Positions 10,769 through 11,215 of a DNA stretch of 11,925 nt are shown here, in pieces. Origin of the DNA: a virus; the UHGV virus genome UHGV-1563677; one strand, written 5' to 3'. The translations under genes were made by a program, and so were the position numbers. The notes beneath the pieces were generated by a model. The model was not told where the DNA came from. It was given only the letters and a program-made list of their open reading frames with translations, and made no database searches. Numbering within the stretch: the first letter of the stretch is position 1; each line of letters starts with the position of its first letter.

Positions 10769-10855
10769 TCACCACCAACGGATTGCCCAGACCAGAACAG
10801 CAATGGCCACAATACGAATGGCAAATGCCATTGCCCGAATAAGTTCAGCACTCAT
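10769..10855 (-). CDS. Micro-ORF D: 28-aa single-TM peptide ([28 protein letters not shown]); its stop is 1 nt before the Rz ATG
   Basis: Own translation of the minus strand; ATG at 10855, TGA at 10769-10771, arrangement TGAtATG with Rz. The core [14 protein letters not shown] is paralogous to micro-ORF C (RALAFAIKWVAVGI). Weak SD. Confidence 0.4.
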
Positions 10856-10866
10856 CTTTTTAAAGT

Positions 10867-10989
10867 TCACGATTTCAGCGCAATGACCAGTTTTGCCAGC
10901 CCATACAGCATCGGAGACACAGCAATACCAACAGCCACCCACTTAATAGCAAAAGCCAGCGCTCTGCTGATGTCATCAGTCACTGTCAC
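10867..10989 (-). CDS. Micro-ORF C: ~40-aa single-TM peptide ((M)TVTDDISRALAFAIKWVAVGIAVSPMLYGLAKLVIALKS); putative GTG start overlapping the micro-ORF B stop (GTGA)
   Basis: C-terminal part of the 90-aa track ORF 10867..11139, whose TTG-initiated N-terminal part overlaps micro-ORF B in another frame and was rejected. Protein-level similarity to micro-ORF D supports this frame as coding. The start is uncertain. Confidence 0.35.
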   Translation of the reverse strand: MTVTDDISRALAFAIKWVAVGIAVSPMLYGLAKLVIALKS

Positions 10990-11117
10990 CCCAGCAGCCC
11001 CGACGAAGACAACATCACCCAGGCGAGGGACAGAAAAAGAGCAACCAGCATTAGTGAAAATGAAATACCGACAATCACACACAGGACCTTTGCCGGCGTT
11101 ATGAGTTTGTCTGACAT
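10986..11117 (-). CDS. Micro-ORF B: 43-aa single-TM peptide (MSDKLITPAKVLCVIVGISFSLMLVALFLSLAWVMLSSSGLLG)
   Basis: ATG at 11117 preceded by AAGGGG with 5-nt spacing; it starts 2 nt after the micro-ORF A stop (TAGctATG). Below the size cut-off of the ORF track. Confidence 0.45.
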   Translation of the reverse strand: MSDKLITPAKVLCVIVGISFSLMLVALFLSLAWVMLSSSGLLG

Positions 11118-11119
11118 AG

Positions 11120-11215
11120 CTACCCCTTAATTGCCACAATTAACTGGGATACTACCCATAAAAAAGGGATGCTCCAGACCAGCAAAAATTTCCAGTTTGG
11201 TAATTGACTAATCAT
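11120..11215 (-). CDS. Micro-ORF A: 31-aa single-TM peptide (MISQLPNWKFLLVWSIPFLWVVSQLIVAIKG)
   Basis: Internal ATG at 11215 of the 70-aa track ORF, preceded by AGGGAG with 9-nt spacing. The longer GTG-initiated version (to 11332) would translate through a terminator hairpin and was rejected. Confidence 0.4.
   Translation of the reverse strand: MISQLPNWKFLLVWSIPFLWVVSQLIVAIKG

What the first reader, a model, noticed from the sequence alone, without database searches (positions are those of the whole stretch)
10769..11215. Cluster of four tightly packed single-TM micro-ORFs (28-43 aa) inserted between the SAR endolysin and Rz
The ~640 bp between the endolysin stop and the Rz start holds no ORF of normal size. 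It holds four consecutive minus-strand micro-ORFs, each encoding essentially one hydrophobic helix. They are packed like an operon: TAGctATG between A and B, a GTGA overlap between B and C, 9 nt between C and D, and TGAtATG between D and Rz. A and B have good SD sequences. C and D share a conserved core at the protein level (RALAFAIKWVAVGI versus [14 protein letters not shown]), which argues these frames are under selection. The segment is visibly AT-richer than the flanking phage genes and starts after a bidirectional terminator-like hairpin. Possible roles are lysis-timing modulators (antiholin or pinholin-regulator-like), small membrane toxins of a type-I-TA-like kind, or membrane morons for host fitness or exclusion. 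Alternatively, one extra G in the run at ctggggtgac would fuse B and C into an ~83-aa two-TM holin-like protein, so a decayed or frameshifted class II holin must be considered.
Basis: partly seen in the sequence, partly recalled or inferred. Interest (0 to 1): 0.78.

Follow-up and report, generated by a model that had tools for sequence, protein, structure and literature searches.

The report
Small membrane-peptide genes beside phage spanin
The four tiny open reading frames between the endolysin and Rz genes of this E. coli prophage are real: two are intact and two are shortened copies of conserved but uncharacterised phage genes for single-helix membrane peptides, they are not a broken holin, and what they do is still unknown.

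Summary
Four same-strand micro-ORFs fill the 642-nt gap between a SAR-type lysozyme and Rz/Rz1. The segment is AT-richer than its flanks and follows a terminator-like hairpin.

The ORFs belong to three uncharacterised small-protein families with no Pfam, NCBIfam or PADLOC match.
- A is a 44-45-aa family found across Enterobacterales. Its start here is probably TTG 11254.
- B is a 43-aa Escherichia family, intact just upstream of Rz in 276 phage records, mostly Stx phages. One Stx-type homolog has a marginal Ribo-seq signal.
- C and D are paralogs of a 50-60-aa Escherichia/Salmonella family under strong purifying selection (pN/pS 0.08-0.14).

In this window C is a 5'-truncated copy fused to the end of B. 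D is a short form. The arrangement is a recombinant mosaic present in about 580 of 5,426 complete E. coli genomes.

A-like and C/D-like genes travel as a hairpin + SD + ORF cassette. The cassette usually sits between endolysin and i-spanin, but also between baseplate genes, after tail-fibre genes and before a portal gene.

The decayed-holin and type-I-toxin readings are not supported.

The most likely function is inferred only: late-expressed accessory inner-membrane peptides acting on lysis timing or another membrane step.

The parts
11410..11925 (-). 3' part (171 of 177 codons) of the lysozyme R. It has an N-terminal Gly/Ala-rich weakly hydrophobic segment (SAR-type).
   Evidence: PF00959, E=1.2e-23. 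Annotated as lysozyme or rrrQ in loci identical over the 721-nt query. N-terminal KD19 maximum is 1.78.
11287..11319 (-). Terminator-like hairpin: A-tract, GC stem, T-tract. It precedes every A-like and C/D-like cassette with an intact 5' region that was examined; the 5'-less short-form copy in a Serratia genome lacks it.
   Evidence: Terminator scan and fold z=-2.9. The same layout occurs in 14 other contexts. In an alignment of 14 versions, 12 pairs are predicted and 5 show compensatory double changes.
11120..11254 (-). ORF A, 44 aa from TTG 11254. Layout: N-terminal amphipathic segment, Pro hinge, one TM. It is the 'IKG' subtype of a 45-aa family.
   Evidence: phrog_6632, E=1.3e-12. Homologs occur in Salmonella, Citrobacter, Enterobacter, Klebsiella, Pantoea, Brenneria and Serratia. 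Family pN/pS is 0.28 in frame against 0.76 and 1.97 off frame, and codons 1-14 are also constrained. Against: one allele has a premature stop and one has a 1-nt insertion (L081).
10986..11117 (-). ORF B, 43 aa, one TM (KD19 2.87). An Escherichia-restricted family that normally lies immediately upstream of Rz.
   Evidence: phrog_4906, E=4.5e-21. A full-length intact ORF is present in 276 phage records at 62-100% aa identity, and is unannotated in most of the Stx-phage records listed. 185 protein clusters were found; among the 120 listed, length and the W33 / SGL[VL]G end are kept. pN/pS is 0.39-0.56. The Sakai homolog XECs191 passes Ribo-seq thresholds in LB only.
10867..10989 (-). ORF C, 40 aa from the GTG that overlaps the stop of B, or 38 aa from GTG 10983. 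It is a 5'-truncated copy (residues 23-60) of the 60-aa 'Clong' gene and has lost its own SD and start.
   Evidence: phrog_1115, E=3.7e-25, matched to the C-terminal part of the profile only. DNA alignment shows the junction at GGGGTGA|CAGTGACTGATGAC. Full-length Clong has pN/pS 0.14. C is frameshifted in L013. Natural 38-aa short forms exist (P0113, 56 contigs).
10769..10855 (-). ORF D, 28 aa. It is the short form of the same family as C (the 'RWW' subtype). Its stop lies 1 nt before the Rz ATG, so its last codons are also the Rz ribosome-binding region.
   Evidence: phrog_4493, E=3.8e-6. It aligns with Dlong, a 50-aa form with pN/pS 0.08. It also follows a full-length Clong in other prophages. 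An in-frame 13-codon deletion is seen in L013.
10300..10767 (-). Rz (i-spanin), 155 aa, with Rz1 (o-spanin lipoprotein) embedded at 10362-10547.
   Evidence: PF03245, E=7.5e-50. The Rz1 ORF has a lipobox and a Pro-rich sequence.

Best explanation
Shown. The R-Rz interval of this lambdoid prophage is a cargo hot spot. It holds a recombinant array of genes for very small single-pass inner-membrane peptides from three uncharacterised families.
- A (44 aa) and B (43 aa) are intact members.
- C is a 5'-truncated copy of a 60-aa gene, fused to the end of B.
- D is a short-form paralog of C.
- A-like and C/D-like genes move as a unit: terminator-like hairpin, about 40 nt with a CAAGGGAGAAC-type Shine-Dalgarno, then the ORF.
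- The unit sits at gene junctions of phage late operons, most often directly before the i-spanin gene.

Inferred.
- No promoter follows the hairpin and the ORFs are coupled to one another and to Rz. They are therefore probably made only from the terminator-resistant late (Q-dependent) transcript, together with the pinholin, SAR endolysin and spanin.
- They would act in the inner membrane as dispensable accessory peptides that bind a larger membrane protein, in the way small bacterial membrane proteins usually work.
- The most likely effect is on lysis timing or the membrane step of lysis. The near-invariant internal Met with its own SD suggests a long and a short product, as in holin/antiholin pairs.
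- Whether truncated C is still translated is open, at roughly even odds.
For: Family membership.

Architectures in 160+ related loci: R-Clong-B-Rz, R-A-B-C'-D-Rz, R-Clong-D-Rz, R-A-B-Rz, R-Dlong-Rz and R-Ant-B-Rz.

Frame-specific purifying selection.

B is an intact ORF in 276 phage records.

Synteny with different partner genes:
- R-Clong-Rz in Salmonella prophages with a different holin and lysozyme allele.
- A-like genes directly before Rz (1 nt) or DUF2570/LysC spanins (1 nt), or before unidentified ORFs (22 nt), after lysozyme, GH19 or M15 endolysins.

Hairpin + SD + ORF layout in 14 contexts, with covariation in the stem.

No sense-strand sigma-70-like site after the hairpin in three contexts.

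Internal Met is nearly invariant in both families.

The AF2 model of Clong has helix 2-18 and helix 23-59, mean pLDDT 78.6.

Published Ribo-seq signal for a B homolog (PMC5597208).

The window type is carried by isolated phages (vB_EcoS-569R3; PhiR5_1 lacks most of A) and by 580 of 5,426 complete E. coli genomes.
Against: - No experiment bears on function, and the lysis-modulator role is inference from position.
- The cassettes also occur away from lysis genes: between baseplate gpV and gpW in SEN34, Pantoea and Serratia; after tail-fibre genes; and before a portal gene. Adjacency to the spanin is therefore not required.
- Other lambdoid cassettes lack any such gene. K-12 Qin has R overlapping Rz; for lambda this rests on my own knowledge.
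- Disrupted alleles exist: B with an 11-nt deletion in 9 loci, A with a stop or frameshift, and C and D decayed in L013.
- Selection on B is only moderate.
- Promoter scans are crude consensus searches.
- The Sakai Ribo-seq signal is marginal (RCV 0.43, coverage 0.55, LB only). It comes from an uninduced lysogen with many similar prophages.
Confidence: 0.55

Rival explanations
1. Moron-type cargo with a role unrelated to lysis. The peptides would be membrane effectors that benefit phage or lysogen, for example by superinfection exclusion at the inner membrane (as HK97 gp15 or T4 Imm do), by blocking a host membrane protein, or by anti-defence. They would sit between R and Rz only because that junction tolerates insertions.
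For: - The same site holds an antirepressor gene in Stx phages and a DNA methyltransferase in other prophages.
- Cassettes occur at baseplate, tail-fibre and portal junctions.
- In SEN34 the roughly 240-nt unit is a clean insertion that is absent from a related Klebsiella phage.
- GC is lower than in the flanks.
- Presence is patchy and swaps between families.
- A B homolog gives low-level RNA and Ribo-seq signal in an uninduced lysogen.
Against: - No promoter-like site lies between hairpin and ORF.
- The terminator is upstream rather than downstream, so expression in a lysogen is not expected.
- There is no PADLOC hit.
- Most copies are coupled to the i-spanin start.
Confidence: 0.3
2. Translation matters and the peptide does not. 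The small ORFs would serve as leader ORFs. After the inserted hairpin breaks the R-to-Rz coupling seen in lambda-like cassettes, they would reload ribosomes and deliver them to the Rz start by termination-reinitiation.
For: - The stop of the last ORF is 1-11 nt from, or overlaps, the i-spanin start in nearly all lysis-site copies.
- The last codons of D (CGT TGG TGG TGA) are also the Rz ribosome-binding region. The same GGTGGTGAtATG follows an unrelated methyltransferase gene.
- A strong conserved SD lies in front of the first ORF.
Against: - Amino-acid sequences are constrained: pN/pS is 0.08-0.28 in frame only.
- The RWW end is kept in SEN34, where no spanin follows.
- Four ORFs are not needed for coupling.
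Confidence: 0.12
3. Non-functional debris. The ORFs in this window, C and D especially, would be relics of recombination that stay open by chance in AT-rich hydrophobic-coding sequence.
For: - C lacks its native start, SD and 22 N-terminal residues.
- C is frameshifted and D is deleted in L013.
- There are too few polymorphisms among 23 window-type haplotypes to show selection: 5 synonymous against 4 non-synonymous.
- AT-rich intergenic DNA tends to encode hydrophobic ORFs (PMC11188072).
Against: - 75 of 76 window-type loci keep the exact 705-nt extracted stretch (the gap plus about 63 nt of flanking coding sequence), and only L081, with a 1-nt insertion in A, differs.
- The peptide of C is identical to the Clong consensus, and its differences from Clong genes are mostly synonymous.
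- Natural 38-aa and 28-aa short forms occur in other contexts.
- The A and B families are clearly constrained.
Confidence: 0.1
4. Decayed or frameshifted class II holin, with B+C once a single two-TM gene. A related reading is a type-I toxin-antitoxin-like locus.
For: One extra G would fuse B and C into 83 aa (sequence). A single 1.3-kb public contig encodes a B-C fusion through a different frameshift (P0091).
Against: - The fusion has no holin hit in Pfam, PHROGs or NCBIfam.
- B and the C-type gene are independent genes in reverse order elsewhere, and they are unrelated.
- An intact class II holin lies upstream.
- The frames are stable in 75 of 76 loci.
- For the TA reading, there is no own promoter, no Rfam match, and only a chance-level antisense promoter-like site.
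Confidence: 0.02

Closest known systems
Morons of lambdoid phages (Hendrix/Juhala concept; for example HK97 gp15, lambda bor and lom). Recalled from my own knowledge.
   Same: Extra DNA lies between genes that are adjacent in relatives. GC is lower, an intrinsic terminator is associated, distribution is patchy, and the cargo is often a membrane protein.
   Different: Classical morons carry their own promoter upstream and a terminator downstream, and they are expressed from the prophage. Here the hairpin is upstream, no promoter was found, the ORFs are 28-60 codons, and they are translationally coupled to the next late gene.
Holin/antiholin dual-start pairs (lambda S105/S107, phage 21 S68/S71). 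From my own knowledge.
   Same: They are small inner-membrane proteins of the lysis cassette. There are two candidate in-frame starts, and the longer form carries extra basic residues (KYKRILLRL).
   Different: There is one TM instead of two or three, and no sequence or family match. They lie downstream of the endolysin. A true class II holin is present upstream. Use of both starts is untested.
P2 LysA, a membrane protein encoded between endolysin K and the spanins LysB/LysC and reported to affect lysis timing. From my own knowledge.
   Same: It occupies the same cassette position (endolysin - membrane protein - spanin), it is dispensable, and it is presumed to act on timing.
   Different: As I recall it, LysA is much larger with several TM segments. 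There is no homology.
Mu gp25 'releasin' (DUF2730). From my own knowledge of Chamblee et al. 2022.
   Same: It is a membrane-anchored accessory lysis protein that acts on a SAR endolysin.
   Different: No Pfam hit of any kind was found, so DUF2730 is not matched. A-like cassettes also accompany non-SAR endolysins (GH19, M15), so a SAR-specific role is unlikely.
Small regulatory membrane proteins of E. coli (AcrZ, MgrB, MgtS, SgrT) and type I toxins (Hok, TisB, Ibs, Ldr). From my own knowledge.
   Same: They are of similar size, have a single hydrophobic helix, and are likely to work through helix-helix contacts in the inner membrane.
   Different: No homology was found. There is no antisense RNA or own promoter as in type I systems, and the genes are phage late-operon encoded.
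PHROG families phrog_6632, phrog_4906, phrog_1115, phrog_3246 and phrog_4493, together with RefSeq WP_001043230 (the 70-aa extended call of A), WP_001280935, WP_042004856 and WP_032140280.
   Same: These are the same proteins. The ORFs are already catalogued as hypothetical proteins.
   Different: The catalogues give no function. They do not link C with D, they over-extend some calls (the 70-aa A and the 90-aa C run through the hairpin or through B), and they do not note the hairpin-led cassette structure.

Membership tests
   B, C, D and the 83-aa fusion have no Pfam or NCBIfam hit. The PHROG hits are all of unknown function.
   B and Clong are separate genes in the order Clong-B in about 70 loci. 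hhalign of B against C/D gives probability 0.1%. Only one short contig shows a fusion (P0091).
   An intact 71-aa class II holin lies upstream of R in loci identical over the 721-nt query. That part lies outside the window.
Type I toxin-antitoxin | Own promoter for the toxin mRNA, and an overlapping or adjacent antisense RNA gene | tested here: not met
   There is no sense-strand promoter-like site. One antisense site is found where 1.7 are expected by chance. Rfam gives nothing. The scans are crude.
Type I toxin-antitoxin | The peptide is toxic when over-expressed | not testable with these tools
   This needs inducible expression.
Moron (Hendrix definition) | An insertion between genes that are adjacent in related phages | tested here: met
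   R overlaps Rz in K-12 Qin. The SEN34 cassette is absent from Klebsiella phage ST16-OXA48phi5.2, where gpV abuts gpW.
Moron (Hendrix definition) | Own promoter, allowing expression from the repressed prophage | tested here: not met
   No sigma-70-like site lies between hairpin and ORF in three contexts. This is a consensus scan only.
Moron (Hendrix definition) | Associated intrinsic terminator and deviating base composition | tested here: met
   A hairpin with covariation is present, but it lies upstream of the ORF. GC is 46.8% against 55.6%.
C/D small-protein family (phrog_1115 / phrog_4493) | HMM match, and the shared core RAxAFAI[KR]xVA within a TM helix | tested here: met
   C matches with E=3.7e-25 and D with E=3.8e-6.
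C/D small-protein family (phrog_1115 / phrog_4493) | Full-length form with the N-terminal KYKR..LRL..M-K-N-G segment and its own SD and start | tested here: not met
   Window C begins at family residue 23 and D at about residue 22. Both lack the N-terminal helix.
A-like 45-aa family (phrog_6632) | HMM match, the motif [VM]IDFSKLIRELRxM..LPNWKF followed by a TM, and a hairpin-led cassette | tested here: met
   E=1.3e-12. The hairpin is shown. The C-terminus is IKG rather than the commoner IRWW.
B family (phrog_4906) | 43-44 aa with MSDKLI..LCVxVGISF..W..SGL[VL]G, located upstream of Rz | tested here: met
   E=4.5e-21. In this window B is separated from Rz by C and D, which is atypical.

The most novel reading that the evidence does not exclude
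The hairpin + SD + micro-ORF units would be a previously undescribed kind of mobile phage micro-cassette. They insert at gene junctions of late operons across Enterobacterales phages. Each encodes a two-isoform (dual-start) single-pass membrane peptide that regulates the membrane stage of lysis, for example holin triggering or spanin activation. B would be a further unrecognised lysis-cassette gene, found in 276 phage records, mostly Stx-converting phages.
Probability: 0.2. Interest if true: 0.7.

Novelty: new variant of a known kind. Interest (0 to 1): 0.45.

Why it matters
- A conserved 43-aa membrane-peptide gene (B) sits just upstream of Rz in 276 phage records, most of them Stx-converting phages, and is unannotated in most of the records listed. 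The genes that control the timing of Stx-phage lysis also control toxin release.
- The A-like and C/D-like genes show that lysis cassettes of many enterobacterial prophages hold an extra, mobile class of tiny membrane proteins that current lysis models do not include. If they tune lysis timing or exclude other phages, they are cheap to test and easy to engineer.
- For annotation, the case shows three problems: over-extended calls (70-aa A, 90-aa C), missed calls, and a truncated paralog (C) that looks like an independent gene.

Tried and rejected
- Pfam, NCBIfam and PADLOC scans of A, B, C, D, Clong, Dlong and the B+C fusion gave nothing. Rfam on 10200-11925 gave nothing.
- Literature searches for the peptide motifs and for 'between R and Rz' found no characterisation. 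Only Huecker et al. 2017 lists a B homolog.
- K-12 Qin was checked for named small proteins at this site. It has none, because R overlaps Rz there.
- An exhaustive HMM search with the C/D profile found only 22 representatives, all small and none with a known domain.
- hhalign of A-like against C/D gave only a 20-column C-terminal match (probability 64%). A common origin of A and C/D is therefore not claimed.
- The search for related loci with broad alignments failed for lack of a conserved stretch.
- The first two viral-contig scans returned mostly near-identical E. coli loci. They were useful for architectures but not for deep divergence.
- Within-type polymorphism (5 synonymous against 4 non-synonymous) is too sparse to show selection on the window's own C and D.
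- The decayed-holin and type-I-TA readings were considered and rejected (see rivals).
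Full report
**Setting.** The window is part of an E. coli lambdoid prophage: HK97-like portal, protease and capsid genes, terminase, an HNH endonuclease, and a lysis cassette on the minus strand. R (stop at 11410) is a PF00959 lysozyme with a Gly/Ala-rich N-terminal segment. Rz (10767-10300) is PF03245 and carries an embedded Rz1 lipoprotein ORF. A 721-nt query spanning the R-Rz interval is 100% identical in many E. coli chromosomes. 580 of 5,426 complete genomes carry at least 80% of it. It is also present in isolated phages. In those loci a 71-aa class II holin and a YdfR-family gene precede R.

**Observation.** The four ORFs, their junctions, the hairpin and the lower GC are all real. One detail differs: the C-D spacer is 11 nt, not 9. 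ORF tiling of the segment exceeds shuffles (4 of 2000 reach it), but that test is circular. The weight of evidence lies in comparative data.

**What the ORFs are.**
- None hits Pfam, NCBIfam or PADLOC. All hit PHROG families of unknown function.
- RefSeq annotates three or four of them as hypothetical proteins.
- The R-Rz interval from more than 160 related loci falls into a few architectures:
  - R-Clong-B-Rz, the commonest.
  - R-A-B-C'-D-Rz, the window type.
  - R-Clong-D-Rz.
  - R-A-B-Rz.
  - R-Dlong-Rz.
  - R-Ant-B-Rz, in Stx phages.
- Clong is a 60-aa protein, MEKYKRILLRLTMKNGLELKAPVTDDISRALAFAIKWVAVGIAVSPMLYGLAKLVIALKS. Window C is exactly its residues 23-60.
- The DNA alignment places the junction at GGGGTGA|CAGTGACTGATGAC. 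The truncated gene is therefore joined to the stop codon of B, out of frame with it.
- D aligns with the C-terminal 28 residues of a 50-aa form, Dlong. The same short D also follows a full-length Clong in other prophages.
- The window arrangement therefore looks like a recombinant between an A-B type and a Clong-D type.

**Are they genes?** Nei-Gojobori comparisons show constraint in the annotated frame only.

| Family | pN/pS in frame | pN/pS off frame | Other |
|---|---|---|---|
| Clong | 0.14 | 0.90 and 2.60 | 18 of 30 variable sites at codon position 3 |
| Dlong | 0.08 | 1.53 and 6.99 | 21 of 27 variable sites at codon position 3 |
| A-like | 0.28 | 0.76 and 1.97 | pS = 0.57 |
| B | 0.39 (codons 1-27), 0.56 (codons 28-43) | 0.66-1.55 | moderate only |

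- Although selection on B is only moderate, tblastn finds B as an intact full-length ORF in 276 phage records at 62-100% identity. 185 protein clusters were found, and the 120 listed preserve its length and the W33 and SGL[VL]G features.
- A B homolog (XECs191) is among the Ribo-seq-supported novel small genes of E. coli O157:H7 Sakai. It only just passes the thresholds, and in LB only: RCV 0.43, coverage 0.55 (PMC5597208).
- For the window's own copies the evidence is thinner. Among 23 window-type haplotypes there are 5 synonymous and 4 non-synonymous changes in A-D.
- Disrupted alleles exist:
  - C frameshifted and D with a 13-codon deletion in phiSTEC1589.
  - A with a stop or a 1-nt insertion.
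  - B with an 11-nt deletion in 9 loci.
- On the other side, 75 of 76 window-type loci keep the exact 705-nt extracted stretch (the gap plus about 63 nt of flanking coding sequence). The peptide of C equals the Clong consensus. Natural 38-aa and 28-aa short forms occur elsewhere.

**Wider distribution and the cassette.**
- Clong-type genes occupy the same R-to-Rz position in Salmonella prophages that have a different holin and lysozyme allele.
- A belongs to a 45-aa family, [VM]IDFSKLIRELRxM..LPNWKF-TM-IRWW. It occurs in Salmonella, Citrobacter, Enterobacter, Klebsiella, Pantoea, Brenneria, Serratia and others.
- This family lies after lysozyme, GH19 or M15 endolysins. In the E. coli loci it ends 1 nt before an Rz or a DUF2570/LysC spanin gene; in the Enterobacter loci the next ORFs, 22 nt on, have no family hit.
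- Conservation upstream of the internal Met places the start of window A at TTG 11254.
- Every A-like or C/D-like gene with an intact 5' region is preceded by an A-tract, a GC hairpin, a T-tract and about 40 nt containing CAAGGGAGAAC; the short-form copy in a Serratia genome has neither. The hairpin sequence varies but pairing is kept, with 5 of 12 pairs showing double changes.
- The unit also occurs outside lysis cassettes:
  - Between baseplate gpV and gpW in Salmonella phage SEN34 and in a Pantoea genome (and, as a short form without the hairpin, in a Serratia genome). In SEN34 it is a clean insertion of about 240 nt relative to a Klebsiella phage.
  - After tail-fibre genes.
  - As two tandem cassettes before a portal gene.
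- The R-Rz site itself can instead hold an antirepressor or a DNA methyltransferase gene.
- hhalign links A-like and C/D only through the last 20 columns (probability 64%). B is unrelated to C/D.

**Mechanism.**
- Shown: these are small hydrophobic single-helix proteins. They are on the late-gene strand, tightly packed, with the last stop 1 nt from the Rz ATG. No sigma-70-like promoter lies after the hairpin.
- Inferred: they are expressed from the antiterminated late transcript. They work as dispensable inner-membrane accessory peptides that contact a larger membrane protein.
- Both families have a nearly invariant internal Met. As read directly from the sequences, it is preceded by SD-like codons (AGGGAG or GAGG). 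Long (basic, amphipathic N-helix) and short products are therefore plausible, reminiscent of holin/antiholin pairs.
- I rate a role in lysis timing or the membrane step as the most likely single function. The off-site copies keep a non-lysis moron role (exclusion or host-membrane targeting) as a strong rival, and a pure leader-ORF role as a weaker one.

**Rejected readings.** The B+C decayed holin fails on four counts: no holin match, reverse gene order elsewhere, unrelated sequences, and an intact holin upstream. Type I TA is rejected because there is no own promoter, no antisense RNA evidence and no Rfam match.

**Verdict.** The finding is real and better defined than before. It is a mosaic of two intact and two shortened genes from catalogued but uncharacterised phage small-membrane-protein families, carried in a hairpin-led cassette format that has not, to my knowledge, been described. 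It is of moderate interest. Function remains to be tested.

Noticed in passing
window 11336-11394 (- strand), just downstream of the R stop: This is a hypervariable patch. 25 of about 60 positions differ among otherwise near-identical window-type loci, in two or three haplotype blocks. Conserved sequence flanks it (GGATAACACGAAATCC... and the hairpin). It looks like a mosaic boundary.
   Followed up: partly
L007:1366-1548 compared with L175:3001-3183 (Clong in E. coli and in Salmonella): Codons 3-18 (48 nt, covering both candidate start regions) show no substitution at all, while the rest of the gene has 12 synonymous changes. This suggests a nucleotide-level constraint, either an internal SD/start context or an RNA structure like lambda sdi.
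   Followed up: no
L009 and L011 upstream of Dlong; L175:2960-3003: An 8-codon upstream ORF (MGREVLSL or MCREVYSL) ends in CTGTGAGG, so its stop overlaps the GTG start of the long form. A short AGGGA...TCCCT hairpin covers the GGGAGG SD. This may control translation of the long isoform.
   Followed up: no
L096 and L108 (R-Rz interval, about 936-nt insertion); L015-L018 (about 764-nt insertion): In some prophages the same site carries a 304-aa DNA methyltransferase with a DPPY motif between B and Rz. In others an Ant/KilAC-like gene replaces the 5' part of A. The methyltransferase gene ends in the same GGTGGTGAtATG as D.
   Followed up: partly
L012:1349-1531 (phage phiSTEC1575-Stx2k): Directly after a 57-aa Dlong gene comes a 60-aa lipoprotein-like ORF (lipobox LLVGC), and no Rz-type i-spanin is annotated. 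The cassette has two holin-like genes and an M15 endolysin. This may be an unusual spanin arrangement.
   Followed up: no
P0091 (83 aa; a single 1,290-nt public contig): This is a B-C fusion protein produced by a frameshift upstream of the GGGG run. It could be a sequencing error or a rare variant.
   Followed up: no
window 9643-9984 (- strand): A 113-aa ORF has a lipoprotein-like N-terminus (LVMGC) and is annotated as a TonB family protein in a locus identical over the 721-nt query. It lies between Rz and the YlcI/YnfO-HNH-terminase block. It is another probable moron.
   Followed up: no
window 11120-11332 and 10867-11139 (- strand): Public annotations sometimes call a 70-aa version of A that runs through the terminator hairpin. 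PHROG phrog_3246 reflects a 90-aa version of C that overlaps all of B. Both are probably over-extended calls.
   Followed up: partly
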